Shown here piece after piece: positions 16,033 to 53,056 of a stretch of 64,000 bases of DNA; position 1 is the stretch's first letter; every line of letters begins with the position of its first letter. The stretch is from Escherichia phage JLBYU40. Both the position numbers and the translations under genes were made by a program. The stretch lies in the sequence record NC_105514.1; one strand, 5' to 3'. The notes below the pieces were generated by a model that was given only the letters and a program-made list of their open reading frames with translations, did not search any database and was not told the origin of the DNA.

Positions 16033-16061
16033 ATTATACAGAATTTTAAGGCTTAAAGCAA
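16033..16061 (-). promoter_or_regulatory. early promoter (TTGCTT-17-TATAAT family)
   Basis: minus-strand -35 TTGCTT (plus AAGCAA 16056-16061), 17-bp spacer, -10 TATAAT, conserved A/T leader. Confidence 0.55.
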
Positions 16062-16078
16062 CTGAATTTTTTAATTAC

Positions 16079-16510
16079 TTACCAATCGTTAACAACGCCG
16101 GAGAACTCAGAAGCAAAAACTTTTTCAAATTTCTCTGCAATTTCAGGATGATCTTTGCAGATCAGCTCAATACATGCTTCTGGAGTCATTCCTTCATCTT
16201 CAGGATCACCATAGTATTTATCCCAAAGATCATCGGGAATGATATGCTCCGCCAAATCTTGGAAAGAGACTAACTGATAACGTTCTGCCTCCTCAGCGAT
16301 AAGAATTTCGCACAGATCTTTATCTATATCGCTACGATAATCCGCAATTAATAAGGCATTGCAAGCATGACACTCCCAAACCATCAAGCGTTCAGAAATA
16401 GGATTAGACTTATCCTGTACGTAAGACTGAAACAGGGTTCGGAAAGTTGCCTTAACTTGTTCAAACTTATCTGCTGCTGCGAAAACTAGAGCTTTATCAA
16501 CTTTGTTCAT
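16079..16510 (-). CDS. hypothetical acidic protein
   Basis: 143 aa; downstream of early promoter 16541-16569. Confidence 0.5.
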   Translation of the reverse strand: MNKVDKALVFAAADKFEQVKATFRTLFQSYVQDKSNPISERLMVWECHACNALLIADYRSDIDKDLCEILIAEEAERYQLVSFQDLAEHIIPDDLWDKYYGDPEDEGMTPEACIELICKDHPEIAEKFEKVFASEFSGVVNDW

Positions 16511-16540
16511 TTTGATTCCTTCTCATCAATTTATAAAGTA

Positions 16541-16569
16541 ATTATACAGAAACTTAAGCATTTTAGCAA
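16541..16569 (-). promoter_or_regulatory. early promoter
   Basis: -35 TTGCTA, 17-bp spacer, -10 TATAAT; leader ATAAATTGATGAGAAGG. Confidence 0.55.
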
Positions 16570-16677
16570 ATAAAACTTTTAATTAAAATGCCTAATCCTG
16601 TGCCAATAGCAATACAAATGATTATAAGTATTGCTATCGCCTGTATGATTCGTTTAATAATAACCTCAGCTATATAC

Positions 16678-17271
16678 TTAGACATTTATATCGCCACGCA
16701 ATACAGCAGCTACGTCTTCTCCTATTTGTAATACCTCGCCGGTAGTACAATTAACCACTCTATCGTAACTAGTAAACTTACCAGACACAATATCCTCTAG
16801 TGGAATTGGAGTTCTACTCATTTCAAATGAGACATTAATATAACGTGGATCACGTAAAGAAGTAGTATGTACATGTCCGTGAATATTTAGTTTGCCACGA
16901 AGTTCATTGGGATGCAAAGGGCAGTGAGATAGCCAAAACTTTTTGCCACCTCCAGTCTGTTTGCCTAGAGCTTGAATATCGTCATAAACTTCCGCTAAGT
17001 CCCTAATACTCAGTCCTTGACGCTCCGCATCATGATTACCCATAATGAGTTGATTAGGGACATTGTGGATAACCGACTTTAATTTGGCCAGACCTTCACG
17101 ACCTACTGCAATATCTCCTAGCAAAATAAGTTTTGTTCGTTTACCAATATGCTTGGATAAAGTATCTAGAATATACTCATCGTGCTCTTTCATGTTCTTA
17201 AACCACGGACGGAAACGTAGTGCTCCAGGGTGGTCTAAGTGCAAGTCTGACCAGAATTTAACCTTCATCAC
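16678..17271 (-). CDS. metallophosphoesterase (calcineurin-like)
   Basis: 197 aa; motifs DLHLD, GDIAVGREG, GNHD, GHVHT. Confidence 0.6.
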   Translation of the reverse strand: MMKVKFWSDLHLDHPGALRFRPWFKNMKEHDEYILDTLSKHIGKRTKLILLGDIAVGREGLAKLKSVIHNVPNQLIMGNHDAERQGLSIRDLAEVYDDIQALGKQTGGGKKFWLSHCPLHPNELRGKLNIHGHVHTTSLRDPRYINVSFEMSRTPIPLEDIVSGKFTSYDRVVNCTTGEVLQIGEDVAAVLRGDINV

Positions 17272-17555
17272 TTACTCCTTTTTTGTATTAAATTATCAAC
17301 CCAGGTAGTTAATACTCTAGTTTTAAACTCCTCGGGAGTCTCTCCTTCCTTAAGGTCTACCTCATTAAGGTAGGTAGTAAGCCTTGTTTCTATCTCTATT
17401 TCAGCAGGAGAATTAAAACAAAAATTGACTGCTATTCCAGAATATATTACTCCGGTATCCCCTTTGACGAAAGCATTAACTAATGCTCTCCAACGAAGGG
17501 CATCAATACGCATTGCTCGTAATTCTTCTCGTACTTCTTTCATTCTATCATTCAT
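17268..17555 (-). CDS. hypothetical protein
   Basis: 95 aa ORF. Confidence 0.4.
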   Translation of the reverse strand: MNDRMKEVREELRAMRIDALRWRALVNAFVKGDTGVIYSGIAVNFCFNSPAEIEIETRLTTYLNEVDLKEGETPEEFKTRVLTTWVDNLIQKRSK

Positions 17556-18430: not shown

Positions 18431-18666
18431 ATAACAGTTAAAATAGTTGTGCCATAATCATTAGATAGTTGGAGAGTATAACCCTCTTTATAGAGGGCTT
18501 TTATAGCTTCATAACTAATTTCATCACGATTAAACTGCACAAAAGAACCCCCAATTCCCACAGAAGAAACTATTCTCTTTTTAACATACTTATATGGTTT
18601 CTTTCTGCTATTAAGGAGTGCAGCTCTATTTATCCTGGCTAAACATTTTGCTTGTTCCGCTAACAT
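18421..18666 (-). CDS. hypothetical protein
   Basis: 81 aa ORF. Confidence 0.4.
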   Translation of the reverse strand: MLAEQAKCLARINRAALLNSRKKPYKYVKKRIVSSVGIGGSFVQFNRDEISYEAIKALYKEGYTLQLSNDYGTTILTVIWE

Positions 18667-18670
18667 TTAA

Positions 18671-19345: not shown

Positions 19346-19445
19346 TAATTAATCCTCCCATCAATTTATATAAGTATTATACCAAAATTTTTAGCAAAAA
19401 GCAAGTAAAATAAAAGCCTGATCAGCTAAGATCAGGCTTTGTTTA

Positions 19446-20160: not shown

Positions 20161-20235
20161 AATATATACCTCTCTTAACTAATTTATGTATATATTATAT
20201 AATAACTGGGGCTAAAAGTCAACTACTTTTTTATC

Positions 20236-20652
20236 TTAATCTACTGCATGTATAAATCTTTTCCTAACTAGATACATAGTTATTGGGTAAATTGAGTACA
20301 TAAGTATCGGGGAGAAAAGGGTGAAATACGCTGTAACTCCCCCAGCTAACATCAAAGGTATTAATGCTAGAGTAAGGGCCATAAGAATCATGCCGAATGA
20401 AACAGCCAAAGCTATGGATATGGGATTCTCTAGTTCCATCCATAACCAACAATATTTCGTATCTCTATGGCAATTGCATTTACAAACGCCGAATGAACCC
20501 ATAATTATATACTCTAGTCCGTGAATAACCTTTACTAATAAGCTATTTCGGGTAGTTAATGCAATGATAGTAAAGACTATCATTAAAACGAATACTACTA
20601 GACTTATTTTCCAGATACCTAGCAGCATCATAGTGAATAGTTCTGCAAACAT
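20236..20652 (-). CDS. multi-pass membrane protein
   Basis: 138 aa with about four hydrophobic helices. Confidence 0.45.
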   Translation of the reverse strand: MFAELFTMMLLGIWKISLVVFVLMIVFTIIALTTRNSLLVKVIHGLEYIIMGSFGVCKCNCHRDTKYCWLWMELENPISIALAVSFGMILMALTLALIPLMLAGGVTAYFTLFSPILMYSIYPITMYLVRKRFIHAVD

Positions 20653-24050: not shown

Positions 24051-24705
24051 GCGCTGCTAACCTGTCTTTATCTGATACTTTAATTATATCAGGCTCACCA
24101 GTTCCTAGTACACCAAAGATATACTGTTCGAGAACTTGGTGTAAACGGTATAAGTTACTTTCAATTTCCTGCCACGGAATACCGGACTGATGGAAACGAA
24201 TGTTAGTCTGAATTACGAAGTTACGAACATCATCGTTATCGTTCTTTTTAATACCTTTCACATATGCAATCGGTACACGCAGTTCGGATAAGATACGTTC
24301 TGCTTTAGGTTTTGCTTCAGCTAGTAGATCACGCATTGTTTCACGAACATCTCCACGACTCTTATCCATTAAGTAAGAGCGAGCATGTAACCCCATCTCT
24401 TCCATTTTATCAAACATAGTGTCGAGATTAAACGTTTTGAAGCTAAATGCTGGATGCCAGCAGTACAGCTCGTGTAACCAGTAAACTTCACCTGCAACAA
24501 ATAGGGGGTTTACGAAGTATTCGAAATCACCACGGAAAGATAGCGAACCATCACGAAATACCTGGCGAGTATGCACAATGTTCTTTTCTGCATCATCGGT
24601 TACTTTAACCAGTAACTCCTCAGTTTTACGTTCCCACACACGATCTGGGTCGAACAAACTGTTCTGCAAATCATACACATCGGCGAACTTAGAAATAATC
24701 CTCAT
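24007..24705 (-). CDS. hypothetical protein
   Basis: 232 aa ORF. Confidence 0.5.
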   Translation of the reverse strand: MRIISKFADVYDLQNSLFDPDRVWERKTEELLVKVTDDAEKNIVHTRQVFRDGSLSFRGDFEYFVNPLFVAGEVYWLHELYCWHPAFSFKTFNLDTMFDKMEEMGLHARSYLMDKSRGDVRETMRDLLAEAKPKAERILSELRVPIAYVKGIKKNDNDDVRNFVIQTNIRFHQSGIPWQEIESNLYRLHQVLEQYIFGVLGTGEPDIIKVSDKDRLAAHGFDTKTSFRNMAR

Positions 24706-24859
24706 ATTTAATCCTCTTGCCTCAATCTATAAACATATTATACAAAAGTTTGGGCATCTAAGCAACTAAAATTTTATTATAAAAATAGCCCAGTCGCAAA
24801 AGTGCAGGCTGGGCTTTGTCATTATTTGCTTTTGCTAGTAAGTTGATTTAGTATCAATC

Positions 24860-26623: not shown

Positions 26624-26831
26624 ACCACCAAGAACAAGAATCGCAGAGGAACATTTCGGTTTTCTCCAGTGCTTGACCTAAAAGATCATCAGCTTCCTCA
26701 GCAGTAATCTTCAATCCGCACACATCTGCCACACGTTCTTTAATTAAACGACCTGCTTCGTGGTAAGACATACAGGTTCCCGCAACATCATGTTCAAGAA
26801 CATGAATGGCACAGTCTAGGCGATTTTTCAT
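26550..26831 (-). CDS. Cys-rich protein
   Basis: 93 aa; several Cys pairs; downstream of early promoter 26862-26890. Confidence 0.45.
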   Translation of the reverse strand: MKNRLDCAIHVLEHDVAGTCMSYHEAGRLIKERVADVCGLKITAEEADDLLGQALEKTEMFLCDSCSWWCEAHERSFNDYDVCRDCSGEDEDE

Positions 26832-26861
26832 TTCAAACCTCTCTCATCAATTTATAAATAT

Positions 26862-26890
26862 ATAATAGCAAGAAAAGAGAGGTTTAGCAA
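26862..26890 (-). promoter_or_regulatory. early promoter
   Basis: -35 TTGCTA, 17-bp spacer, -10 TATTAT; leader ATAAATTGATGAGAGAGG. Confidence 0.5.
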
Positions 26891-26907
26891 ATGAATTATT
26901 TCAGAAT

Positions 26908-27255
26908 TTAGTCATAGCACCACCATAATCCACGCTTACGCATGTCATGATCGCGATTATAGTCGTAATTTTCTGGATCTTTCATCACGCGATGTAGTTC
27001 TTGGCGATTCCCTTGACGAACCATTTTATTAGAATGCCACTTAACATTCTTACTAATAGAATTCCAGTTATAACCATCCTTTTTCTCATTACGAATGGTT
27101 GCTTCCTTCATTTCCTGTTCTACATCATCCCAGGATTTAGCATAAATAACACGAATCCAGTAGCCATTTTCTTTTAGGAAAGAATATTCTTGAGAGAATT
27201 GCTCTTTAGACTTCCACCACTGATCACCAGATTGTCTACGATAAGTACGGCTCAT
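26908..27255 (-). CDS. hypothetical Trp/basic-rich protein
   Basis: 115 aa ORF. Confidence 0.45.
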   Translation of the reverse strand: MSRTYRRQSGDQWWKSKEQFSQEYSFLKENGYWIRVIYAKSWDDVEQEMKEATIRNEKKDGYNWNSISKNVKWHSNKMVRQGNRQELHRVMKDPENYDYNRDHDMRKRGLWWCYD

Positions 27256-29165: not shown

Positions 29166-29194
29166 TTGGTTTCCCTCTCATTAATTTATATAAA

Positions 29195-29223
29195 TATTAT
29201 AACAAGAAATAAGAGAGAAAGCA
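29195..29223 (-). promoter_or_regulatory. early promoter
   Basis: -35 TTGCTT, 17-bp spacer, -10 TATAAT; leader ATATAAATTAATGAGAGGG. Confidence 0.55.
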
Positions 29224-29232
29224 AATGAATTT

Positions 29233-29427
29233 TTAATAAAGTTTAGTCACTTCATAAACTATACTACGAGATTCTTTATTTCGTTCTATTAAATTAGTAT
29301 ATGCTTTTTCAGCTTCATTTTTAGTATTAAAGTCTATAACGTGGGAGGTATTCGCTCTATTTGATTGACTATACCAGATAACTACTAACAGTTTAAACAT
29401 AATAGTCCTTAAATTGGTGCTGGGCAC
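29233..29427 (-). CDS. hypothetical protein (start uncertain)
   Basis: 64 aa ORF; listed start overlaps a tRNA 3' end, so the internal Met near 29400 is more likely. Confidence 0.3.
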   Translation of the reverse strand: MPSTNLRTIMFKLLVVIWYSQSNRANTSHVIDFNTKNEAEKAYTNLIERNKESRSIVYEVTKLY

Positions 29428-32246: not shown

Positions 32247-32619
32247 AATATTATTTCTTTAACCACAGCAAAGATAAGCCCAGCATACTAAAACCGCTAA
32301 CTAATCCGATACATTTTTCTTCTATAGTAAAAGTATCTAGATTAAATGCTGTTATAGCTATTGGCATACACCATAATGCCATAAAAACTTGAGATATCTT
32401 GTGTTTCATTTTGCTTTCCTTCTCTTCACTTTATAAAATATATTATACAGATAATAAAGCAGAATAGCAAATGAATTTTTAATAAATTTACTTATTGTGT
32501 AGGCCACCTGGAGGCTACCAACCCCACGGCTGACAAAGAAGTTTGCGAGACCTCTCTTAAATGCCAGAATAGACCCGCCGGTCTATCGGAACCTACATAA
32601 TAAGTAAACTTTATAGTGT

Positions 32620-34280: not shown

Positions 34281-34357
34281 GTTTATCTTGTTCTGTCATG
34301 TTGCTTCTCCAGTTCAATTTATGTAATTATTATACAGAACTTTTGGAAACTAAGCAA

Positions 34358-34627
34358 CTACATTTTTAAGAATTTGATGCCTTTCTTTTTCTTCTTATAT
34401 TTCCACGTTAATGGATTCTGCCGATTGTGAACGCTTGAGATCTTCGTCTCGTCAAAGTTCTTCAATATCATGTAATCACAAGATAATTGTTCTAATGGAA
34501 TGTGATCACCGTCAAAAGCATATACATAAGGCTGTTGACTAACACGATAATGATAGACTTTGTTAATTCTACGTTTTAGCGACTTATCAGCGCAGTAAAT
34601 AAAGAAGTTTTCAGGATGCATCAGCAT
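34358..34627 (-). CDS. hypothetical basic protein
   Basis: 89 aa ORF. Confidence 0.4.
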   Translation of the reverse strand: MLMHPENFFIYCADKSLKRRINKVYHYRVSQQPYVYAFDGDHIPLEQLSCDYMILKNFDETKISSVHNRQNPLTWKYKKKKKGIKFLKM

Positions 34628-34979: not shown

Positions 34980-35107
34980 ATATTTAAAAGTATTCAAATA
35001 CTAGTTTAAACACTTTTAAATATGTTTCCGAATTAGATAACTATTATATCAAGTTTTAAGGCACTGAGCAAGTCAAATTTTAAAGAACTTGCTCAGTGCT
35101 GTATTAG

Positions 35108-35383
35108 TTAGTCGAACTTAGGAGTGACAGTTAAGGAGAACGGAAGTTCGAAAACTTCTTCGCCCTCATTACTAACGGTAACTACACGACCTTTAAGTTC
35201 AGACATTAAAATATCAATATCAGCTTTTGCATCTGGAGCCATGCCAGCTTCAATACATTTAGCTTTAACTTCCGGTAAAAGCTCTACGTTATAGAGATAG
35301 AGCCACTCAATCTCACCTTCCCAGTCTTCCCAGGATTTGCAGATTGCACTTTCAATACCAGTTGCTACAACACGATTTTGCAT
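35108..35383 (-). CDS. hypothetical acidic protein
   Basis: 91 aa ORF with early promoter upstream. Confidence 0.45.
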   Translation of the reverse strand: MQNRVVATGIESAICKSWEDWEGEIEWLYLYNVELLPEVKAKCIEAGMAPDAKADIDILMSELKGRVVTVSNEGEEVFELPFSLTVTPKFD

Positions 35384-35473
35384 TAATTAACTCCTTCATC
35401 AATTTATATAACTATTATACCAGAAATTTAAAGTAAAAGGCAAGTACATTTTTAAAAATTCTGTTTGGAGGAG

Positions 35474-35680
35474 CTAAACTCCAGATTTTTCGGCCAAGTC
35501 TAGACTAATAAGAGTTATAGCCATAATTGCTGCACCGTGTTCTTTTTCTCCGGTGTTTTTAGCAGAGTCTATAATATCCTTAATCTGTTCGTAATAACTT
35601 TTTACTTCTTGTTCAATGCCTGCCTCGGCTATCATGCCTTTAGCCATGAATCGTTGCATGGTAATTTCAGGATTAGCCAT
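35474..35680 (-). CDS. hypothetical protein
   Basis: 68 aa ORF. Confidence 0.4.
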   Translation of the reverse strand: MANPEITMQRFMAKGMIAEAGIEQEVKSYYEQIKDIIDSAKNTGEKEHGAAIMAITLISLDLAEKSGV

Positions 35681-36232: not shown

Positions 36233-36321
36233 TGGCGGAAGAAGTGGGAATCGAACCCACAAGGCTATATTTCAAACCGACAGATTAGCAATCTGCTGCA
36301 ATACCGTTATGCTATTCTTCC
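36233..36321 (-). tRNA. tRNA-Ser (GCT), type II
   Basis: perfect acceptor, anticodon stem GCAGA/TCTGT, loop TTGCTAA, long variable arm, CCA. Confidence 0.6.
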
Positions 36322-36342
36322 GAATTTATAAGATATATTATA

Positions 36343-36862
36343 TTAGAAATTTAGCTTCATAGCAAGAAAATTTTTCAAGTTTTCGGTAGACATCTCATCT
36401 ACATCTACAGGAGAAACAAAGCCGTTTAATTTTCTAGCAAATTTTTCACCATCGGGATCATTGTCTCCAACAGCTACCAATTTAAAAGGTAGTAATTTCA
36501 GTTGCTTTAATAACGCTTTTCCTGGAGAAGAACCCAACATTGCTAGGGCTGGATAACCAGCGTTATGTAACGCAACTGCCTTAAATACAGATTCAGCAAT
36601 CAATACTACTTTTTCATCTCCATTGAGAGTTTCTAGTCCCCATACACACTGGGTAGTAGAATAAGTAAAGTATTTAGCTTCAAAGGGGCACTTACCATGA
36701 CCTTTTGGAGCAGAAGGATTATAAGTTTGATAGCCCCTCAACATCCCAGAGAAGTCATACAACGGGACTGTTAGCCATCCTTCTGGACTTAACCAGCAAT
36801 GATATTTATCTGTATCAAATCCCCTAGATAAGAGGTGCTGTGTTAGCTCATCAACATTCATA
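36343..36862 (-). CDS. Toprim-domain protein
   Basis: 173 aa from the Met at 36862 beside an early promoter; IAES...VAVGDNDPDGEKFA resembles the Toprim E + DxD signature. Confidence 0.45.
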
Positions 36863-37036
36863 TTTGGTTCCTCTCTCAAATTTATAGATATATTATACAG
36901 AGAATTTAGCATTCAAGCAATCAAATTTTTTAACTTTTTAGAGGAAAATCATAGGGCGCTTAAGGGTAACAGATAAGTGGTGAGGACCAAAATTTGTGAC
37001 CCCACTAAAAATCCGGGGGCAATTTTTAAAGACCCC

Positions 37037-40730: not shown

Positions 40731-40759
40731 ATTATACAGAATTTATAAGCATTTAGCAA
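40731..40759 (-). promoter_or_regulatory. early promoter
   Basis: -35 TTGCTA, 17-bp spacer, -10 TATAAT. Confidence 0.5.
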
Positions 40760-40767
40760 ATGAATTT

Positions 40768-41202: not shown

Positions 41203-41440
41203 TATTTCATCCCCAATGCTTGGTTAAAAGATTGTTCTGTCATAACTGCTGAGACTTTGGCGAAATCAAACTTTTTAGGGTTCGTAGTGATTTCAGCAAC
41301 GTTAGAAGTTTTAACAGTTTTCGTAGTACGAATACCGCGAGTGTTAACACCAATAATTACAACTGATTTCATATTTCGCTTCCTCTCATTAATTTATGAA
41401 AGTATTATACAGAAATTTAAGTATTTAAGCAAGTAAATTT

Positions 41441-41908
41441 TTAAGTTTTAGTGACAACAGGTTTATAAAACGTATGTCCCTTAATCTTAGTTGTTTTCTT
41501 AAACTTCTTTGTCCAGTAAGGTTTATCTTTACCACTATGGAAGTATAGTGCTCCATGTGTAGGATCTTGTGGTAAATCAACGTAGTATATCACTCTAGCT
41601 AAATTCTTAGCGGTTTGCCAAGCCTCATCAGTTTTATCAACTTTTGGTCTCTTAGATACCCAAGAGAACTGGTTAGACTGATATACTACTTTACAGTAGG
41701 AATCTGGGAATTTACCGGAGTTTACACGGTTTTTAGTAACATGTGCAATCGCCGTCATTCCCTTTATGCCCTCACCACGACTTTCGAAATAGATATTTTT
41801 AGCAATGCAATCTATTTCTTTTGCATCGTGCGATGCCTGACTACTAAAGCTGAAGGTAAGGGCAGCTACTAAAAGCAAAGCTGCCTTCATTCTTTTTACT
41901 ACTGCCAA
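41441..41908 (-). CDS. secreted cell-wall hydrolase (SleB-like)
   Basis: 155 aa; signal peptide; IAHVTKNRV...FPDSYCKVVYQSNQFSW resembles the SleB hydrolase core. Confidence 0.5.
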   Translation of the reverse strand: MAVVKRMKAALLLVAALTFSFSSQASHDAKEIDCIAKNIYFESRGEGIKGMTAIAHVTKNRVNSGKFPDSYCKVVYQSNQFSWVSKRPKVDKTDEAWQTAKNLARVIYYVDLPQDPTHGALYFHSGKDKPYWTKKFKKTTKIKGHTFYKPVVTKT

Positions 41909-42213: not shown

Positions 42214-42655
42214 AATAGCCTCGTTTCATCAATTTAAAAATATATTATACACATAATTTAGTAAATTAGCAAATACATTTTTAAATTGTGAAACTAGTAA
42301 ACCGATAAACAGCCTAGAGGCGCCACAGGCCATATCTTATGAGCCATGTACCTTTGATCTAGGGTTTGAATCATCAATGAATACTTTGCATCTTTTAGCT
42401 TTAGAAGTTTAGAAGTTTGAGTTCTTTAAACTTTTCAGCTTTCATACTTAAATGTTGATCTTTGAAGTTGTGTCGGTAATATCAACGACGCTTTGTTTTT
42501 ACGTGTCAGATTAAATGTCTGATGTAATAAACATAATCTCCAATAGATTATACTTTATAGTATGGTCAGCGGTCTTATTTAACCTCGTATTTCAACCGCT
42601 GCTGCGAGGTAAGATGCTTGGGCTTTCGTCTACCGATTTACTAGCTTTTAAATTA

Positions 42656-43294: not shown

Positions 43295-43570
43295 TATTTG
43301 CTTCCTTATATGAAGTTTGAGATTTGAATTTGTTTAAAGTTGGTCTATTACAGACCAATTGCCAGCAGAGTGCGCAGAACAGTATCGTTACTGTTATCAA
43401 TTTTAGGATTAGCACGATTTAGCAGATCAAAGATTTTCTGGACACCTGATTGACGTTCAGCCATACGACGGATACCCAGATTACGAGTAGCTTTCTTACC
43501 ATTTTTACGAACATTTTTAGATACTGGCGTATTTGTTTTCCTTTTATTGTTTTCTCAAATTTATGAATAT

Positions 43571-43599
43571 ATTATACAGAATTTTGGGGCCGGAAGCAA
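43571..43599 (-). promoter_or_regulatory. early promoter
   Basis: -35 TTGCTT, 17-bp spacer, -10 TATAAT. Confidence 0.5.
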
Positions 43600-43600
43600 A

Positions 43601-44302
43601 TCAAATTTTCATTTTTTCGATCATAGCTGCAACACAATAGCTTTCAACTAAGGCATCAAATGCAGGATCATGCTTAACCGGATAGATCCCATAACGAATA
43701 GTGTCCATCTTCTCCATTTTAGCTATTGCCCAGCTAATAGCTTCGGTCTCTAGAGCCTTATAACTGTATCCAGCTTGCATCCAGAGATTACGAAGAGATC
43801 GAACATTACCCAAATTCCAGAATTTCCACGGAACTACCTCTTCATTGGTTCCAGCATGGAACGTGTTTGCAGAGTAGATAGTCATATCAAATTCTGGGCC
43901 ATTGCCATAATACAAAGCATTTTCGCCTAGAGCCAACTCCATAATATTTTGAGCCATAGAGAAGGCAGCATAGTTAGAGCCGAGCTTATTAGTACAGTGA
44001 TGTTTACCATTTTGGAAGGCAATCAGTTTTGGATTACGTTCCTTCATAGCTTCCATTATGTGAATAGCAGAGGGGCTATTTTTAGCTTGATCCATCCAGA
44101 ATGCTAGAGTAGATGCTGTAACTTTGGCACCAGAATTAAGCTGATCCTGCACATCCAAAGTAACAAATACTAAGTCAGGGTCTTTGTCAATCCCATGCAT
44201 AGCCACAAAAGCGAAAGAAGGCATTGCGATATGAGTAGTACCACAATCTCCTGGAGTTCCTAGAGATTCAATATCTAGCATACCAAATGGTTTTACTTTC
44301 AT
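43601..44302 (-). CDS. putative DEDD-type 3'-5' exonuclease
   Basis: 233 aa; FGMLDIESLG (DxE) and C-terminal HDPAFDALVESY (H-x4-D). Confidence 0.45.
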   Translation of the reverse strand: MKVKPFGMLDIESLGTPGDCGTTHIAMPSFAFVAMHGIDKDPDLVFVTLDVQDQLNSGAKVTASTLAFWMDQAKNSPSAIHIMEAMKERNPKLIAFQNGKHHCTNKLGSNYAAFSMAQNIMELALGENALYYGNGPEFDMTIYSANTFHAGTNEEVVPWKFWNLGNVRSLRNLWMQAGYSYKALETEAISWAIAKMEKMDTIRYGIYPVKHDPAFDALVESYCVAAMIEKMKI

Positions 44303-44330: not shown

Positions 44331-44567
44331 TTAAAGAGCTGTCTCTTTAATAGACTCCCACTTCTTGGGGTCTTTAAAACCAGGAAGCATATCCTCACTG
44401 ACATCCCAGTTCTCTTCCATAGAGAAGTCGGGCCATTCATTCCAGCTACCTTCCAGCTCTTCATAACAGGCATCCATTACCTCATGAATAGAAAGTCGTG
44501 TATAATCCCTAGCTGACTTATGGGTGCTAGCACGGTTAAAATCATTCTTTGCTACAAAATTACGCAT
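44331..44567 (-). CDS. hypothetical acidic protein
   Basis: 78 aa ORF. Confidence 0.4.
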   Translation of the reverse strand: MRNFVAKNDFNRASTHKSARDYTRLSIHEVMDACYEELEGSWNEWPDFSMEENWDVSEDMLPGFKDPKKWESIKETAL

Positions 44568-45403: not shown

Positions 45404-45441
45404 TATTTATTTTCCTTTTTGTTTATCAATTTATGAAGTAT

Positions 45442-45470
45442 ATTATACGAGAATTTGAAGCGTTTAGCAA
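45442..45470 (-). promoter_or_regulatory. early promoter
   Basis: -35 TTGCTA, 17-bp spacer, -10 TATAAT. Confidence 0.5.
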
Positions 45471-45486
45471 ATGAATTTTTTAAAAA

Positions 45487-45765
45487 TTATCTACCAACCA
45501 TCTTGGCTTGTTCTGCATCGGAAACATATTGATACGCTCCTTTATTATACGCTGGAGCAGTACACATTTTCTTACGCTCAATCTCTTCTTGAGCTTTTCT
45601 TTCGCGTTCAGCTAATTCTTCGTCCAGATAAACTAAACGTTGTTCTGGAGGGGGTGGAAGACGTGTCTCTGGCTCACCAATATTAGCCTTTCTTATTTGA
45701 CGAGGTGATTGTGCACGTTTTCTCAATGGTTTAAATCCTAATGAATTTGAGTTATAAATCCGCAT
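45487..45765 (-). CDS. hypothetical protein
   Basis: 92 aa ORF. Confidence 0.4.
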   Translation of the reverse strand: MRIYNSNSLGFKPLRKRAQSPRQIRKANIGEPETRLPPPPEQRLVYLDEELAERERKAQEEIERKKMCTAPAYNKGAYQYVSDAEQAKMVGR

Positions 45766-45841
45766 AAAGCCCTCCTCACTTTCAATATGAATATTATACT
45801 AAATTAGAGGGCTTTAAGCAAGAAGATTTTTAATTTATTTA

Positions 45842-46330
45842 TCACATCTCGGCCATTTCAGCTTCAGTAATAACTGTGTTACACAATGCATCTACAGCTT
45901 CATTACCACTAATACCAGAATGTCCTTTAACCTTAATAAAGGTAGGATTAGTATTGTGAAAGTTGATATACTGCTGTGTTAATTTAAATGCTTCCTGCCA
46001 AAGTTCTAGATTAAGAGGGACTTCACCATCTGCTTTCTTCCAGCCTTTCCTTTGCCAAGAAAACATCCAACTTTCCATACCATTTTTGCAATAAGCAGAA
46101 TCAGTATAGATAACAATTGGTCTATTATCTTTTTTAACTGACCAACGTAGAGCCTCTACAATAGCCGTGAGTTCCATCTCATTATTTGTAGTTTTAGGAC
46201 TATATCCAGATTTAGAACCTAAACGATCGTCGTTATCATCATAGACAATAAAACCCCAAGCACCTGGACCTGGATTAGACTTACAAGCACCATCTGTATA
46301 AATGTGGAAAACCGACATTATACCTCCCAA
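45842..46330 (-). CDS. rnh: ribonuclease H
   Basis: 162 aa; YTDGAC...GPGAWG, TNNEMEL, YTDSAY RNase HI motifs. Confidence 0.7.
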   Translation of the reverse strand: MGGIMSVFHIYTDGACKSNPGPGAWGFIVYDDNDDRLGSKSGYSPKTTNNEMELTAIVEALRWSVKKDNRPIVIYTDSAYCKNGMESWMFSWQRKGWKKADGEVPLNLELWQEAFKLTQQYINFHNTNPTFIKVKGHSGISGNEAVDALCNTVITEAEMAEM

Positions 46331-46599
46331 CTAATTTTAAGACCCATGTCTACAAAGGCGGCTTCTCGGTAGTATTGTGAGAGATGATACCCCTTATCCG
46401 ATAAGGTTTTTAGTACCGATTTAGCTGCTCCTGGCATTTCTCTAGGATTATATAGCCATCTAGCGTAAGGATTATCTCGAATAATTACTTCTGTATTTCC
46501 AGACTTAGCAGCTTCTACAATCTTTTCTTCTATAAACTTTAGAAATGCGGGTACTTCTGTTAATCCTGCAAGTTCTTGGGCTTCTTTGGCTGAAATCAT
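46318..46599 (-). CDS. hypothetical protein
   Basis: 93 aa ORF. Confidence 0.45.
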   Translation of the reverse strand: MISAKEAQELAGLTEVPAFLKFIEEKIVEAAKSGNTEVIIRDNPYARWLYNPREMPGAAKSVLKTLSDKGYHLSQYYREAAFVDMGLKISWEV

Positions 46600-46692
46600 T
46601 GTATACCTCCAATTTATAAAATATATTATATTTAAATTTCACTAAATAAGCAAATGAAATTTAAATATAATAGCCCCGAAGGGCTATTTAAG

Positions 46693-47532
46693 TTAAGAGG
46701 ACATTTTAGCTTTAAGAGCCGGATGCGGATCATATCCTTCAAGCTGGAAGGACCAAGCTGCCGTATTATTTTCTAATAAATCGTAAAGATCTACAAACTC
46801 TGGCATTACTAGAGTAGGTAAAGCACGAGGTTTACGTTTTACCTGCTCTTCTACCTGTTCCATGTGGTCATTATAGATATGAGTATCACCGCCACTAAAG
46901 ATAAGATAACGAGGTTTTAATCCTGTCAGTTTTGCTAATATGTGCGTTAATAAAGCATAACTAGCAATATTGAAAGGTAAACCGAGGAAACAATCTACAG
47001 AACGTTGGGTCCATTTAAGATCTAGGTATCCATCGTTACTTACATAGCACTGGAAGCCGTAGTGACATGGTGGTAATGCCATTTTATCAAGTTCAGCTAC
47101 GTTCCATGCAGAAACTAGATGTCTGCGGCCATGAGGATTATTCTTGAGTCCTTCAATAAGTTCTATAATCTGATCTCTCCCACCAAAGTTGCGCCACTGT
47201 TTACCATATACTGGTCCTAGATTACCCTTATCATACCCCATACTTATAGCTTGGTCTTCATAATTTGGAGTCCAGATGGTCCACTGTCCTTCGTCACGAC
47301 CAAATGTGAATACACGTAGATCATGGAGATTTGTGGAACCAGACAAGAACCATAAGAGTTCTCCTACTACTGATTTCCAGGCCAGGCGTTTAGTAGTTAC
47401 AGCCGGGAATCCCTCACGTAGGTCGAACTTAGCATAGGAATCAAAAATCGAAACTGTGCCCGTTCCTGTACGATCGTTACGTGGTTCACCTAGTAAAATT
47501 ACATCTGTCAAAATTTTTAAGTATTGTTGCAT
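46693..47532 (-). CDS. thyA: thymidylate synthase
   Basis: 279 aa; catalytic-Cys motif PPCH and RLAWKSVVGELLWFLSGSTN. Confidence 0.8.
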   Translation of the reverse strand: MQQYLKILTDVILLGEPRNDRTGTGTVSIFDSYAKFDLREGFPAVTTKRLAWKSVVGELLWFLSGSTNLHDLRVFTFGRDEGQWTIWTPNYEDQAISMGYDKGNLGPVYGKQWRNFGGRDQIIELIEGLKNNPHGRRHLVSAWNVAELDKMALPPCHYGFQCYVSNDGYLDLKWTQRSVDCFLGLPFNIASYALLTHILAKLTGLKPRYLIFSGGDTHIYNDHMEQVEEQVKRKPRALPTLVMPEFVDLYDLLENNTAAWSFQLEGYDPHPALKAKMSS

Positions 47533-49207: not shown

Positions 49208-49313
49208 TGATTTTCCTCTTTCTCACTATTTCAGGAATATTATAGCAAATCTGGTAGCGATTAGCAAGTAAAATTTCAAAGAAAAAGGAGACCCGAAGAT
49301 CTCCTTATTTTTA

Positions 49314-51644
49314 TTAAATAGTACAACCGCCTGATGCACAACCGGCTGCTTCTTCTCCTGCACCACCACCATTAGCGGTGTTGAAGTTTGCGTAGTAGAA
49401 AGTCTTCCACCCATACTTAACAGCAGTCATGAAATCACGAACTACTACTGGACCAGGAATGATTTCATTCTCAAACTTGGTGTAGTCATAGTACATATTC
49501 GTACTGATAGACTGACTGAAGAATTTCTGCATAGTTGCTACCCATTTGATCCACTCGATACGATCTACATCATAAGCCAGTTTATAGCTCATTAACGTTT
49601 CCCAATCGGTTGCACCCGGAGCAATTGCAATTACTTTATTCACTGCACTACCCTTGATAGATACAATCTTACGAGGCGGTTCAATAGAGTTAGTAACACC
49701 TAACAGAACAGAAGAACTTTCTCCCGGCATCTGAGCAGTCAGAACAGAGTTACGCATACCATATTTCAGAATATCTGCACGTAGAGACTCCCAATCCATT
49801 TCTAGACCTACGGATACCAGTTCATCAACAGTTTTCTTGTACGTGTCGATTACCAGAATTCCTTTAGATGGTTTAGTACGATCAAACCACTCACATGCAC
49901 CCTGTTCTTTAGCTAGGCGTACAGAGGCTTTATGTAGGAAGTAGGACAGTTTTTCAGCCTCACGGTGAATCCAGTTACGGGCTTCAATACCTTCGTAAGC
50001 CAGACCTTCTGCTGCCATTGCACCTGCTGCGTTCATTAGGCCAATACCAACATTACGACGTTTCTTAGCCGTATATTCCATAGTTGGGAACGGATAATCC
50101 TGAATTTCGATAATTGTATCAACGAATTTCAGAAGGATGTAGCAAGTTTTTTCCCACTCAGCTAGAGATTCCATGCGTCCAAGTACAACACCACCTAAGT
50201 TACACAGAGATACTTCACCAATATCCTCCGGCTTCATTTGATCAAGCTGCTCTTTTGTCTTATACAGCTCTGTAATGTGATGGAATGGGCGTGTAGGCTG
50301 AGTAATCTCAACACAAAGGTTTGTCATACGGATCGGATCAAGGAAATTACCGTGACGATTAGATTCCCCGATGTGATGAGCATACATACGTCCTGTTTCC
50401 ATTCGGATACGTAGCCAAGTATCTAGGATTTCTTTTGCAGAGACTTTAGGAGCTGCAGGAACTGTTTTTCCTTCGTGGTCGATCTTTGTAAGAGATGCCA
50501 CACGTTTCTCCGCTGCCACGTAGATTTCTTCAAATTTAGCCTCGTCATCACTATAAAACGCTTCATGAACTTCTGGAGCATAGAAGTATGACATTAGCGT
50601 AATATCTTCATTTTTCAGATAACGTTTTAACAAAAGATTGTTGAAGCTCAGAGAATAATCCATCTTATCGATTTTATTCTCATCTGTAGCACGTTGTTGC
50701 TTAACCTGCATTAATTGAATGATTTCAGGGTCGAAGTATGGATAAGACACTGTAGCAGAACCACCACGAGTTTGCTGAGTATTGGCCTTTACTGAGCGGT
50801 CAATGTGTCGATAATATGGCAGTTTTCCGGAATGCGGGAATGCCCCATTTCGCACCGGATCAGCAATTGATCGGCTTTCAAGATGATACCCGATTCCCGC
50901 TCTGGCTGCGACCATTTTGAAGACGATGTGCTCGGCGGTGTCGATTGAATCCAACGTGTCAGTGGAATCCACGAGGCAGCAACTAGCAAATCCACGGTCA
51001 CTAGAGCGCAGACCAACCAGTGGCGGCGTAGGAACGTTGATTTTGTGGAGCGACATTGCGTTGTAGAGGTCGATTGCATCTAGAATTGTCCAGTTAGGTT
51101 GAGATAACATCGCCATTGCCATACCCATGTAGGCAAACTGCGGGGTTTCGTAAATTTCACCAGTGGCTATGTTACGACGGGAATACTTATCAAAGAACTG
51201 CTTCAGCCCACCACTAGTAAAAAGACGGTCACGATCATGGTCGATAACCTGATTCAGAGCTTCAAATTGCTCATCGGTAATCCATGCACTCATGTCTTCC
51301 CATGCACCTACGCTAACCATGTGGTCATGGAAGAAGCGTAGAGAAGGTGGTTCGAAAGAGTCATAAAGGCGTTTACGCATTTGCGCAAGACGTAATTCCT
51401 TTGCTGGCACATCGTATGCTGGGTTATCTTTGATAAGACTTTCAGCAGCTTTAATTAATGCGTCCATCAGAGTGTCGGAATCTACAACCCCTTTAGGTAG
51501 AGTTTTTTGAGCAGCCATAGTAATGGCTGACCAGCTTACATCAACTGTTTTGCAACCATACTCTGCCCAACCATTGAGTTTTTCAGGAGCAAAGTCTTCT
51601 ACAGTACCGTCACGTTTAATTACTTTTTCAATGCGATGGCTCAT
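49314..51644 (-). CDS. nrdA: ribonucleotide reductase class Ia large subunit
   Basis: 776 aa from the Met at 51644 (RBS AAAGGAAAG); ATP-cone VIKRDGTVEDF; C-terminal Cys pair; the longer 51749 start is probably not used. Confidence 0.75.
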   Translation of the reverse strand: MSHRIEKVIKRDGTVEDFAPEKLNGWAEYGCKTVDVSWSAITMAAQKTLPKGVVDSDTLMDALIKAAESLIKDNPAYDVPAKELRLAQMRKRLYDSFEPPSLRFFHDHMVSVGAWEDMSAWITDEQFEALNQVIDHDRDRLFTSGGLKQFFDKYSRRNIATGEIYETPQFAYMGMAMAMLSQPNWTILDAIDLYNAMSLHKINVPTPPLVGLRSSDRGFASCCLVDSTDTLDSIDTAEHIVFKMVAARAGIGYHLESRSIADPVRNGAFPHSGKLPYYRHIDRSVKANTQQTRGGSATVSYPYFDPEIIQLMQVKQQRATDENKIDKMDYSLSFNNLLLKRYLKNEDITLMSYFYAPEVHEAFYSDDEAKFEEIYVAAEKRVASLTKIDHEGKTVPAAPKVSAKEILDTWLRIRMETGRMYAHHIGESNRHGNFLDPIRMTNLCVEITQPTRPFHHITELYKTKEQLDQMKPEDIGEVSLCNLGGVVLGRMESLAEWEKTCYILLKFVDTIIEIQDYPFPTMEYTAKKRRNVGIGLMNAAGAMAAEGLAYEGIEARNWIHREAEKLSYFLHKASVRLAKEQGACEWFDRTKPSKGILVIDTYKKTVDELVSVGLEMDWESLRADILKYGMRNSVLTAQMPGESSSVLLGVTNSIEPPRKIVSIKGSAVNKVIAIAPGATDWETLMSYKLAYDVDRIEWIKWVATMQKFFSQSISTNMYYDYTKFENEIIPGPVVVRDFMTAVKYGWKTFYYANFNTANGGGAGEEAAGCASGGCTI

Positions 51645-51682
51645 TTGGCTTTCCTTTTTATAGTTATCAGGATTTAAGGAAT

Positions 51683-51711
51683 ATTCTACTTTATTATCGG
51701 TCATTAGGCAA
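51683..51711 (-). promoter_or_regulatory. candidate nrdA promoter
   Basis: -35 TTGCCT, 17-bp spacer, -10 TAGAAT, about 40 nt upstream of the proposed nrdA start. Confidence 0.4.
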
Positions 51712-51786
51712 ATAAAATTTTCTGATAGAAAAGGCCCGAGTATTTTCATACCCAGGCCCTGTATATTACCAGTCTAGCTTTTTAGC

Positions 51787-52008
51787 TTATTCAATTACTT
51801 TAGCTCTAGCTACTTCTTTTAATAGAATATCTATGGAGGTGCTCAGCTCGTTATAATTGAATGGTTTATTTGGATTTGAGGTTACAATTTTCCACGCTAG
51901 GGTTGTCTTAGGACTTTCTTCCCCTTCCTTACGTGTAATCATATTAGCAGCACTCAGTGAAGTACGATGTATTTTAGTTTTACGGCTCAGATGAACGACG
52001 TTTCCCAT
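51787..52008 (-). CDS. hypothetical basic protein
   Basis: 73 aa from internal Met (MGNVVHLSRK) with RBS; the listed longer ORF overlaps phoH. Confidence 0.4.
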   Translation of the reverse strand: MGNVVHLSRKTKIHRTSLSAANMITRKEGEESPKTTLAWKIVTSNPNKPFNYNELSTSIDILLKEVARAKVIE

Positions 52009-52009
52009 A

Positions 52010-52771
52010 TTACACCTTCCCCATGTCTTTAAAAATATCATAGAATGCTTTAGACTCAACAGAACGAACGTTATCAATCAATTCGATCATTGAGAAGGGG
52101 GCATTTTCGTATTTCTCATAGACTTCCATAAGGAGTGCTAGACCTGAGTCGCCTTTAATGTCTTTCTGGGCTATATCTCCGCAGATAATTAAACGGCAGT
52201 CTTGTCCTACACGAGTTAGGAGACAAATCATTGCCTCAACGGAAATATTCTGAGCTTCATCGACAATTACATAGGAGTTGTTGAAAGTTCTGCCACGAGC
52301 ATGTTCGATAGCCAAAAATTTAATTTTCTGACGTTCGACATACCCTTTATATGCATGATCGCCAATGGCCCATTTCATACCATCAGCTATTGGCTCCAAC
52401 CAAGGCTCTAGCTTTTCCGCTAGATCACCAGGAAGCATACCAAGAGACTTACCTAGAGGTTCATTAGGACGTACGAGAATCACTTGCTCAATATCTGAGT
52501 GAATGTCTACTAGTTCCTGAGCTGCAAGAACGGACGGAATAAAGGTTTTACCAGTACCTGGCTCACCGATACCCACAGTCACTGTGTTGTTCTTGATCAT
52601 ATTGATATATGATTTTTGCTCGCGGTTTTTACCTACTAGGGATTTAGCAACTGGGTTAGCGTAATCATTAGAAAAATCAGCCTGAATTACGTTATTCTCA
52701 TATTTGTTGCCACGCTTTCTTGAACCATTGCGGTTCTCTCTTTTTTGACGTGCTTTTCCCATAAATAACAC
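52010..52771 (-). CDS. phoH: PhoH-like ATPase
   Basis: 253 aa; Walker A GEPGTGKT and Walker B VIVDEAQN. Confidence 0.75.
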   Translation of the reverse strand: MLFMGKARQKRENRNGSRKRGNKYENNVIQADFSNDYANPVAKSLVGKNREQKSYINMIKNNTVTVGIGEPGTGKTFIPSVLAAQELVDIHSDIEQVILVRPNEPLGKSLGMLPGDLAEKLEPWLEPIADGMKWAIGDHAYKGYVERQKIKFLAIEHARGRTFNNSYVIVDEAQNISVEAMICLLTRVGQDCRLIICGDIAQKDIKGDSGLALLMEVYEKYENAPFSMIELIDNVRSVESKAFYDIFKDMGKV

Positions 52772-53056
52772 TCCTATAGTGTACTTCGCTAACAGAGGAT
52801 CAACAAAAAGATCTTGTTTATCAACTTACAAATATATTATACCAATATATACAGTAAAAAGCAACTACAATTTTAAATAAGCCTATGATATTGCATTTAA
52901 ATAAAAAATTTGCTTGCTTTTAACGTGAGATGTGTGATACTAGATAATCATTTTATATCGCGTGCACGAGTGCGTGATTATACAATTTTTAATAGAGATT
53001 GGCAAATAAAATTTTTTGACTCAGATCATGTTATAGAACTTTATAGTAAAATATTG

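What the first reader, a model, noticed from the sequence alone, without database searches (positions are those of the whole stretch)
16033..52900. More than 20 copies of one early promoter module with a conserved leader
Seen: upstream of most minus-strand operons the same module recurs: TTGCTT/TTGCTA, exactly 17 bp, TATAAT, then an A/T leader ending in the RBS (consensus TATAATATATTCATAAATTGATGAGAGG). Copies lie near 16050, 16555, 19390, 24750, 26875, 29210, 31785, 32440, 34330, 35420, 36890, 40745, 41420, 42255, 43585, 45455, 46640 and 52840; two near-identical plus-strand copies are at 55032-55060 and 62722-62750. Established: T5 early promoters are very strong sigma70 promoters. The conservation extends past -10 into the transcribed leader.
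Basis: partly seen in the sequence, partly recalled or inferred. Interest (0 to 1): 0.4.

Follow-up and report, generated by a model that had tools for sequence, protein, structure and literature searches.

The report
Early promoters of a T5-like phage

Summary
TTGCT-N18-TATAAT occurs 23 times in the window against 0.05 expected. A matrix scan that allows 16-18 bp spacers raises this to 27 copies between 16033 and 63778.

The window is the left 64 kb of a T5-like phage (Demerecviridae). 26 of 27 scanned sites (25 of the modules listed here plus a weak site inside nrdA) were mapped to T5. All but the nrdA site fall on promoter features of the T5 reference record. These include the named promoters P-F30, P11, P13a/b, P14a/b, P15a/b/c, P16-17, P-D/E33, P-H207, P-N25 and P-N26.

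The same consensus, with AAAAATT at -43 and TAAATT at +1, was published for phage AKFV33 in 2012. The role of the N25 initial transcribed sequence in promoter escape has been studied since 1986.

What this analysis adds:
- The "leader" has two parts: a promoter-locked ATAAATT block and an ordinary ribosome-binding site.
- The ATAAATT block is the slowest-evolving part of the module.
- The architecture is specific to the early class.
- It recurs in Pantoea and Vibrio members of the family.

A recombination-junction role was tested and found no support. Verdict: already known, low interest.

The parts
16007..16102 (-). Early promoter module (core TTGCTT-17-TATAAT at 16033-16061); ATG at 16000
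   Evidence: maps to T5 promoter feature 16245-16319 at 98.6% identity
16515..16610 (-). Early promoter module (core 16541-16569, TTGCTA); ATG at 16510
   Evidence: maps to T5 P-F30
19350..19445 (-). Early promoter module (core 19376-19404), directly preceded by a terminator hairpin; ATG at 19345
   Evidence: maps to T5 promoter 18550-18624
20168..20263 (-). Weaker variant (core 20194-20222, TTGACT-17-TATAAT, ATAAATT kept); ATG at 20160
   Evidence: 26 bits; maps to T5 promoter 19368-19442
24711..24806 (-). Early promoter module (core 24737-24765), terminator hairpin upstream; ATG at 24705
   Evidence: maps to T5 promoter 24443-24517
26836..26931 (-). Variant with TATTAT -10 (core 26862-26890); ATG at 26831
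   Evidence: 46 bits; maps to T5 promoter 26722-26796
29170..29265 (-). Early promoter module (core 29196-29224); ATG at 29165
   Evidence: maps to T5 P11
31744..31839 (-). Early promoter module (core 31770-31798) in front of stable RNA and tRNA-Ala/Leu; the leader forms a hairpin
   Evidence: maps to T5 P13b
32416..32511 (-). Early promoter module (core 32442-32470); ATG at 32409
   Evidence: maps to T5 P13a
34303..34398 (-). Early promoter module (core 34329-34357), upstream of tRNA-Cys
   Evidence: maps to T5 P14b
35017..35112 (-). Early promoter module (core 35043-35071, TTGCTC) in front of the tRNA-Tyr/Glu/Trp/Phe cluster; no ribosome-binding site
   Evidence: maps to T5 P14a
35388..35484 (-). 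Variant with 18-bp spacer (core 35414-35443, TTGCCT); ATG at 35383
   Evidence: 52 bits; maps to T5 P15c
36311..36406 (-). Early promoter module (core 36337-36365) in front of tRNA-Ser; ATAAATT kept, no ribosome-binding site
   Evidence: maps to T5 P15b
36866..36961 (-). Early promoter module (core 36892-36920); ATG at 36861
   Evidence: maps to T5 P15a, for which early transcripts were seen by primer extension in PMC7472727
40705..40800 (-). Early promoter module (core 40731-40759) in front of a stable RNA region and tRNA-Arg; ATAAATT kept, no ribosome-binding site
   Evidence: maps to T5 P16-17
41378..41473 (-). Early promoter module (core 41404-41432), the best-scoring copy; ATG at 41372
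   Evidence: maps to T5 P-D/E33
42218..42313 (-). Early promoter module (core 42244-42272); ATG at 42213
   Evidence: maps to T5 promoter 43067-43141
43545..43640 (-). Early promoter module (core 43571-43599)
   Evidence: maps to T5 promoter 44393-44467
45416..45511 (-). Early promoter module (core 45442-45470); ATG at 45403
   Evidence: maps to T5 P-H207
45767..45862 (-). Early promoter module (core 45793-45821) with a diverged initial transcribed sequence; ATG at 45765
   Evidence: maps to T5 promoter 46337-46411
46599..46694 (-). Early promoter module (core 46625-46653), terminator hairpin upstream; ATG at 46599
   Evidence: maps to T5 promoter 46937-47011
49213..49308 (-). Early promoter module (core 49239-49267), terminator hairpin upstream; ATG of nrdB at 49207
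   Evidence: maps to T5 promoter 50061-50135
52810..52905 (-). Early promoter module (core 52836-52864) upstream of phoH
   Evidence: 100% identical to T5 promoter 53638-53712
54992..55086 (+). Early promoter module (core 55032-55060), terminator hairpin upstream; ATG at 55089
   Evidence: maps to T5 promoter 55708-55782
58638..58733 (+). Variant with 18-bp spacer (core 58678-58707, TTGCAA), followed by a leader of about 400 nt before the origin-binding protein gene
   Evidence: 37 bits; aligns from its -10 onward with T5 promoter 58999-59073
62682..62776 (+). Early promoter module (core 62722-62750), the orthologue of T5 P-N25; ATG of D2 at 62784
   Evidence: maps to T5 P-N25 feature 63043-63117 at 95.6% identity
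63710..63804 (+). Early promoter module (core 63750-63778), the orthologue of T5 P-N26
   Evidence: maps to T5 P-N26 feature 64068-64142 at 98.3% identity

Best explanation
These are the early-class promoters of a T5-like phage, read by unmodified host RNA polymerase with sigma-70. Each is a composite of about 75 bp:
- an A-tract at about -46 to -41 that resembles a proximal UP-element subsite;
- a -35 hexamer TTGCTw;
- an AT-rich spacer of 17 bp (rarely 18);
- a perfect -10 TATAAT followed by A;
- an AT-rich discriminator;
- a start at the A about 7 nt after the -10;
- the initial transcribed sequence (ITS) ATAAATT.

Where a protein gene follows, a strong Shine-Dalgarno sequence (GAGAGG) and an ATG at about +20 to +28 come next.

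The upstream half gives fast, tight polymerase binding. The conserved start region governs the late steps of initiation, namely promoter escape, as shown experimentally for P-N25. The short, unstructured, A/U-rich leader with a strong ribosome-binding site gives efficient translation. One such module heads each short early operon, tRNA and stable-RNA clusters included.

Shown here: presence, enrichment, one-to-one orthology with annotated T5 promoters, class specificity, register and purifying selection. Inferred: the exact start sites in this phage, and that the escape function measured on N25 explains the conservation at every copy.
For: - Enrichment: 23 matches against 0.05 expected. 27 copies score far above shuffles.
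- Identity: the window is a T5-like phage. Of the 27 sites mapped, 26 fall on promoter features of T5 AY543070, among them P-N25, P-N26, P-H207 and P-D/E33.
- Class specificity in T5: 29 of 30 matrix hits lie in the early region, none in the pre-early repeat. Late P-G25 and P-J5 and pre-early P-H22 lack the module.
- ATAAATT sits 6 nt (15 copies) or 7 nt (3 copies) after TATAAT. It persists before tRNA and stable-RNA genes. TAAATT is found upstream of 13 of 17 module-linked gene starts and 0 of 53 internal SD-ATG starts.
- Orthologue mismatch rates: flanks 9.9%, hexamers 1.1%, +1 to +8 0.4%.
- Paralogues average only 56% identity, with conserved islands, so the copies are constrained sites and not recent duplicates.
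- The same extra features appear when only TTG-N20-TATAAT is used as the criterion in Pantoea phage AAS21 and in Vibrio phages AG74 and D261b.
- Literature: the same consensus, including AAAAATT at -43 and TAAATT at +1, was reported for AKFV33 (PMC3326045). Early promoters share the discriminator ATATT (PMC7472727). Replacing the N25 ITS from +3 to +20 cuts full-length RNA to a tenth, and the native ITS is described as optimally suited for escape (PMC12464699).
Against: - No transcription start site was mapped for this phage. +1 is transferred from T5 N25, and its exact position rests on memory of the published N25 sequence; the tool-read papers support it only indirectly.
- The ITS carries TG at +7/+8 (+8/+9 in N25). 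In randomised-ITS experiments on other promoters, TG at +5 to +7 slows escape (PMC5961368). 'Optimised for escape' is therefore not self-evident from sequence.
- Among orthologues the discriminator is not especially conserved (8.9% mismatch), even though a consensus ATATT has been reported.
- Why a specific non-consensus -35 (TTGCTw, only 3-4 of 6 matches to TTGACA) is kept across the whole family is not explained by promoter strength alone.
Confidence: 0.93

Rival explanations
1. The conserved block after the -10 is mainly a translational element: an A/U-rich enhancer plus ribosome-binding site shared by early mRNAs. It would not be part of the promoter.
For: In about 18 copies the ATG lies 19-27 nt after the presumed start, and a purine-rich Shine-Dalgarno sequence follows ATAAATT. 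Leaders are mostly unstructured, at 0 to -6 kcal/mol.
Against: ATAAATT is kept before tRNA and stable-RNA genes, where no ribosome-binding site follows (36337, 40731). Its register is fixed relative to TATAAT, not to the ATG. TAAATT is absent upstream of 53 internal SD-ATG gene starts (0/53 against 13/17). The N25 ITS effect is seen in transcription with pure polymerase.
Confidence: 0.07
2. Besides intrinsic strength, the class-specific parts (TTGCTw, discriminator, ATAAATT) are the cis-target through which a phage protein recognises early promoters or early transcripts and shuts them off at the early-to-late switch. Candidates are gpT5.026 or D5.
For: The module is confined to the early class. 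The +1 to +8 block evolves more slowly than the hexamers. The same non-consensus features persist from Escherichia to Vibrio phages. The switching mechanism is stated to be unknown, and gpT5.026 affects polymerase contacts with the -5/+2 region, with early transcripts about 5-fold up in its absence (PMC7472727).
Against: The promoters need no phage factor for activity, and the ITS effect is reproduced with pure polymerase. gpT5.026 has only weak effects in vitro. No binding data exist, and nothing here tests binding.
Confidence: 0.12
3. The modules act as dispersed homology patches at which gene cassettes are exchanged between related phages, like the promoter-early stem-loop repeats of T4-like phages.
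For: Homology breakpoints between the window and T5, Shivani and bastian fall inside modules 22 times out of 148, against 5.9 expected (p about 1e-7). Several lie exactly at a module edge, for example 29236, 31813, 46617 and 49232/49237. Five modules abut a terminator hairpin.
Against: Against noncoding sequence only, the enrichment disappears (11 of 62 against 21% expected, p = 0.78). Breakpoints shared by several genomes are not independent events. Paralogue identity averages 56%, which is low for homologous recombination.
Confidence: 0.04
4. TAAATT at +2 to +7 is a -10-like element that holds sigma-70 and causes a promoter-proximal pause, for instance to let a ribosome load.
For: Sequence resemblance only: T-A at its first two positions and T at the last. 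Such pauses are known at lambda pR' (PMC4005639).
Against: No paper read here reports such a pause at N25. The idea rests on resemblance recalled from memory and was not tested.
Confidence: 0.04

Closest known systems
Bacteriophage T5 early promoters (P-N25, P-N26, P-H207, P-D/E33, P11-P16/17 and others), as annotated in AY543070 and characterised by the Bujard and Ksenzenko groups
   Same: Same positions in a collinear genome and 85-100% sequence identity. Same architecture: A-tract, TTGCTw, 17-18 bp spacer, TATAAT-A, AT-rich discriminator, ATAAATT. Same restriction to the early gene class.
   Different: Nothing of substance. This phage lacks some T5 homing-endonuclease insertions next to the promoters, and individual copies differ by a few bases.
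Promoter consensus reported for the T5-like phage AKFV33 (PMC3326045)
   Same: TTGCTw, 17-18 bp spacer, TATAATA, AAAAATT at about -43 and TAAATT at +1, in 32 promoters.
   Different: That paper treats the downstream block only as AT-richness. It does not separate it from the ribosome-binding site or compare subfamilies.
T4 early 'uber' promoters (UP/-35/TGn/-10)
   Same: Strong phage promoters for unmodified host polymerase, with consensus information beyond the two hexamers and an upstream A/T-rich element (PMC2988021).
   Different: The T4 early class is described as having excellent matches to the -35 and TGn elements. The T5 class keeps a non-consensus TTGCTw, mostly lacks a canonical TGn and has a conserved initial transcribed sequence.
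T4 middle promoters (MotA box wwwTGCTTtA plus -10)
   Same: The string tTTGCTTaA around the -35 of many copies resembles the MotA box.
   Different: The MotA box lies 12 +/- 1 bp from the -10. Here the equivalent box would end 15 bp from it. The T5 promoters also work without phage factors. This is resemblance only.

Membership tests
T5-type early promoters (sigma-70 dependent) | -35 hexamer TTGCTw and -10 TATAAT(A) separated by 17-18 bp | tested here: met
   23 exact TTGCT-N18-TATAAT matches plus 4 near variants. 25 copies have a 17-bp spacer and 2 have 18 bp. A follows TATAAT in 22 of 23.
T5-type early promoters (sigma-70 dependent) | AT-rich block AAAAATT around -43 | tested here: met
   Columns -10 to -7 upstream of the -35 are A in 19-22 of 23 copies, followed by T.
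T5-type early promoters (sigma-70 dependent) | Conserved TAAATT at the start region, with an AT-rich discriminator | tested here: met
   ATAAATT lies 6-7 nt after TATAAT in 18 of the 26 copies examined.
T5-type early promoters (sigma-70 dependent) | Orthology with mapped T5 promoters in a collinear genome | tested here: met
   Of the 27 sites mapped, 26 overlap T5 promoter features, 14 of them with historical names. The exception is the weak 51683 site. 58678(+) aligns with T5 promoter 58999-59073 from its -10 onward.
T5-type early promoters (sigma-70 dependent) | Restriction to the early gene class | tested here: met
   In the window, no copy lies in the pre-early region at 1-10 kb apart from one borderline half-match. 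In T5, 29 of 30 hits are in the early region.
T5-type early promoters (sigma-70 dependent) | Transcription starts at the predicted +1, and the promoter is recognised by E. coli sigma-70 holoenzyme without phage factors | not testable with these tools
   Known for the T5 orthologues from the literature. Not measured for this phage.
UP-element-containing promoters | A/T-rich element upstream of the -35 that is contacted by the alpha C-terminal domain | tested here: inconclusive
   An A-tract is present at the position of the proximal subsite. The subsite consensus is recalled from memory, and no binding can be tested.
T4 MotA-dependent middle promoters | MotA box wwwTGCTTtA positioned 12 +/- 1 bp from the -10 | tested here: not met
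   The sequence resembles the box, but with TTGCTT-17-TATAAT the box would end 15 bp from the -10.
T4 MotA-dependent middle promoters | Presence of MotA and AsiA homologues in the phage | not tested
   No protein search was run for this.
Promoter-early stem-loop (PeSL-like) recombination repeats | A stem-loop joined to each early promoter, and mosaic junctions concentrated at the repeats | tested here: not met
   Only 5 of 26 modules abut a hairpin. Junctions are not enriched over other noncoding DNA (p = 0.78).

The most novel reading that the evidence does not exclude
The early-class signature consists of the non-consensus TTGCTw and, above all, the ATAAATT start block. That block is the slowest-evolving part of the module and is retained from Escherichia to Vibrio phages. 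On this reading the signature is not only a strength and escape optimum. It is also the cis-code by which a still-unidentified phage function tells early promoters or early transcripts from pre-early and late ones and shuts them off. The mechanism of that switch in T5 is still unknown.
Probability: 0.1. Interest if true: 0.5.

Novelty: already known. Interest (0 to 1): 0.13.

Why it matters
It matters little as a discovery. These promoters were mapped in the 1970s-80s, are annotated in the T5 reference genome, and one of them is a standard tool of molecular biology. The analysis is useful as annotation of this particular phage, giving 27 early promoters and their operon heads. It also shows that the start-region block is a promoter element under the strongest constraint and is shared across the family. 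That makes it a sensible target for anyone studying T5's unexplained early-to-late switch.

Tried and rejected
1. Modules as recombination junctions. Breakpoints against T5, Shivani and bastian are enriched over all sequence but not over noncoding sequence. Rejected as unsupported. The coding mask was crude, and events shared between genomes are not independent.

2. Recent duplication or a mobile repeat. Paralogues average 56% identity (maximum 77%) with conserved islands separated by free positions. Rejected.

3. Known RNA family in the leader. An Rfam gathering-threshold scan of the window returned only tRNAs.

4. T4 MotA-box analogy. The spacing criterion is not met.

5. The generic sigma-70 scan found no excess of promoter-like sites (35 against 44 expected). 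It also misses the TTGCTT copies, because that hexamer matches TTGACA at only 3 of 6 positions. This is a limit of the tool, not evidence against the promoters.

6. The original papers (Gentz and Bujard 1985; Kammerer et al. 1986) are not held in the library. Their content is cited only through later papers or marked as memory.

It shows only that multi-copy loci sit on contigs of 104-128 kb, and it is not a census.
Full report
**Observation.** The pattern TTGCT-N18-TATAAT occurs 23 times in the 64-kb window: 20 times on the minus strand between 16033 and 52864, and 3 times on the plus strand at 55032, 62722 and 63750. The mean in 100 dinucleotide-preserving shuffles is 0.05.

Column counts over the 23 copies show conservation well outside the two hexamers:
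- an A-tract just upstream of the -35 (A in 19-22 of 23 at four columns);
- C and T at positions 4 and 5 of the -35;
- an AAATTTCTG-like end of the spacer;
- A right after TATAAT (22 of 23);

A matrix scan, then a two-half matrix allowing 16-18 bp spacers, adds 20194 (TTGACT), 26862 (TATTAT), 35414 (TTGCCT, 18 bp) and 58678(+) (TTGCAA, 18 bp). That gives 27 copies scoring 26-61 bits, against at most 21 bits in shuffles. The two plus-strand copies it called near-identical are about 80% alike (read).

**What the DNA is.** The window is 94-96% identical over 20 kb to Salmonella and Escherichia T5-like phages. Its origin-binding protein is 99.6% identical to that of Escherichia phage BB1. The window is collinear with T5 from base 109 of the T5 record onward. 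It therefore covers the left terminal repeat with the pre-early genes, followed by most of the early region including the tRNA cluster (22 tRNAs).

**Correspondence with known promoters.** The T5 reference record AY543070 carries 75-bp 'promoter' features throughout this region, many with the historical names of experimentally mapped promoters. I blasted 179-bp pieces around 27 scanned sites against T5. Those were 26 of the modules listed here plus a weak site at 51683 inside nrdA; 58678(+) was found later and handled separately.
- 26 sites land on such a feature at 85-100% identity: P-F30, P11, P13b, P13a, P14b, P14a, P15c, P15b, P15a, P16-17, P-D/E33, P-H207, P-N25 (62722+), P-N26 (63750+) and twelve unnamed ones.
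- The exception is the weak 51683 site, which I do not count as a module.
- The 58678(+) copy aligns from its -10 onward with the T5 promoter at 58999-59073.

**Class specificity.** Scanning 117.9 kb of T5 with the window-derived matrix gives 30 hits above 20 bits.
- 29 lie in the early region (10.2-81.7 kb) and none in the pre-early terminal repeat.
- The one in the late arm is the annotated promoter of lpp.
- The annotated late promoters P-G25 and P-J5 and the pre-early P-H22 have other -35 hexamers and no ATAAATT.

In the window, the first 16 kb hold only one borderline half-match, at 5448.

**Dissecting the 'leader'.** I took +1 as the A seven bases after TATAAT, as in N25. That position comes from my memory of the published N25 sequence. 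It is consistent with the +3 to +20 substitution described and with the +5/+6 G's of N25anti.
- In about 18 copies the ATG follows at +19 to +27, with a purine-rich Shine-Dalgarno sequence between.
- Copies in front of tRNA or stable-RNA genes (36337, 40731, and 35043 in a diverged form) keep the ATAAATT block but have no ribosome-binding site. In 31770 the GAGGAG is buried in the stem of a -13.8 kcal/mol hairpin.
- ATAAATT lies exactly 6 nt (15 copies) or 7 nt (3 copies) after TATAAT.
- TAAATT is found upstream of 13 of 17 module-linked SD-ATG starts and upstream of 0 of 53 internal SD-ATG starts.

So the block is tied to the promoter and not to translation initiation. The rest of the 'leader' is an ordinary strong ribosome-binding site on a short, mostly unstructured RNA.

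**Selection.** 30 orthologous module pairs with T5, Shivani and bastian aligned without gaps over 195 nt. Mismatch rates were:

| Segment | Mismatch rate |
|---|---|
| 120 flanking bases | 9.9% |
| Discriminator | 8.9% |
| Spacer | 6.7% |
| Upstream 20 nt | 4.3% |
| +9 to +20 | 3.1% |
| Each hexamer | 1.1% |
| +1 to +8 | 0.4% |

Paralogous copies within the window share on average 56% of 75 positions (maximum 77%). Identity is high at the hexamers and intermediate at the A-tract and start block, while paralogous spacers share only about 42% of positions. This is the pattern of independently constrained sites, not of recently copied repeats.

**Depth in the family.** To avoid circularity I selected sites in three distant relatives with TTG-N20-TATAAT only. 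The relatives were Pantoea phage AAS21 (origin-binding protein 74% identical), Vibrio phage AG74 (Ermolyevavirinae, 46%) and Vibrio phage D261b (39%). In each, the unconstrained flanks again show the A-tract, C at -35 position 4, A after the -10, and cATAAAtT (AAA.T in D261b) at the start. Every multi-copy locus listed lies on a contig of 104-128 kb, the size of T5-like genomes.

**What is already published.**
- Niu et al. 2012 report for the T5-like phage AKFV33 32 promoters with consensus TTGCTw and TATAATA, 17-18 bp apart, with AAAAATT at -43 and TAAATT at +1 (PMC3326045).
- Klimuk et al. 2020 state that all early T5 promoters share ATATT in the discriminator, verify several promoters by primer extension, show that gpT5.026 shifts the early/late balance, and say that the switching mechanism is unknown (PMC7472727).
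- Hsu and Han 2025 summarise that N25 is rate-limited at escape, and that replacing +3 to +20 (Kammerer et al. 1986) lowers full-length RNA tenfold. [quoted passage not shown]

From memory, Gentz and Bujard 1985 already noted homologies outside the classical promoter region. That paper is not held in the library.

**Mechanism.** The best-supported account is the established one. Host sigma-70 holoenzyme binds these modules unaided, helped by the upstream A-tract and the perfect -10. The conserved start region acts at the late steps of initiation. The short leader and strong ribosome-binding site complete a high-expression cassette, repeated in front of each short early operon and each tRNA block.

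Some points remain unexplained by strength alone:
- the family-wide retention of a specific non-consensus -35;
- the extreme constraint on +1 to +8;
- the TG at +7/+8, a dinucleotide that slows escape at nearby positions in other promoters (PMC5961368).

These leave some room for an additional class-recognition role, which cannot be tested here.

**Alternatives tested.** Homology breakpoints between the window and three relatives fall in modules more often than expected from all sequence (22 of 148 against 5.9), but not more often than expected within noncoding DNA (11 of 62 against 21%, p = 0.78). Only 5 of 26 modules abut a terminator hairpin. A PeSL-like recombination role is therefore not supported. 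The likeness of tTTGCTTaA to the T4 MotA box fails the spacing criterion: 15 bp rather than 12 +/- 1. Rfam finds nothing but tRNAs.

**Verdict.** This is a correct observation with a correct reading, of a feature that is already known and annotated. Interest is low. The modest additions are the split of the leader into a promoter element and a ribosome-binding site, the measurement that the start block is the most constrained part, and its presence across Demerecviridae subfamilies.

Noticed in passing
window 53057-53085 (+), with a divergent site at 53005-52977 (-): A perfect sigma-70 consensus promoter (TTGACA-17-TATAAT) lies in front of nrdD (ATG at 53115). Its start region (TTAGTT) differs from the early module. 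A divergent TTGCCA-17-TATAAT site has a GC-rich start region. Both correspond to annotated T5 promoters that lack the module.
   Followed up: partly
window 36152-36226 (-) and 40436-40507 (-): Two Rfam tRNA matches (40.3 and 35.5 bits) were not called by ARAGORN. The first sits where T5 has tRNA-Ile2 (CAU). The second lies inside the region T5 annotates as stable 'RNAX'.
   Followed up: no
window 31738-31763 (-), the leader of the 31770 module: The leader folds into the hairpin GATGAGGA-GAAA-TCCTCATC (-13.8 kcal/mol), which buries the Shine-Dalgarno-like GAGGAG. It precedes what T5 annotates as stable RNA2H of unknown function.
   Followed up: no
window 24003/24016, 25903-26265, 35862-36139 and 49232/49237: The T5 HNH homing-endonuclease genes (hegF, hegE, hegA, hegH) are absent from this phage. 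In T5, Shivani and bastian, hegH is inserted right after the -10/discriminator of the nrdB promoter, between promoter and gene.
   Followed up: partly
window 58708-59126 (+): The 18-bp-spacer module at 58678 is followed by a leader of about 400 nt before the origin-binding protein gene. Just upstream of its -10, window 58093-58701 (including the -35 and spacer) is replaced relative to T5.
   Followed up: no
window 5448-5477 (+): A borderline half-match (26 bits) lies in the pre-early region: TATAAT-atactt-ATAAATTAATGAGAAA with a poor -35 (TAGCCA). It sits in a 230-bp segment that has no counterpart in T5.
   Followed up: no
window 51683-51711 (-): A weak module-like site (TTGCCT-17-TAGAAT, 17 bits) lies inside the nrdA coding region. 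T5 does not annotate it, and it is probably not functional.
   Followed up: no
window 1-9900: This stretch corresponds to the T5 left terminal repeat (first-step-transfer DNA with the pre-early genes A1 and A2 and the injection stop signal region). The window therefore starts about 100 bp from a genome end.
   Followed up: partly
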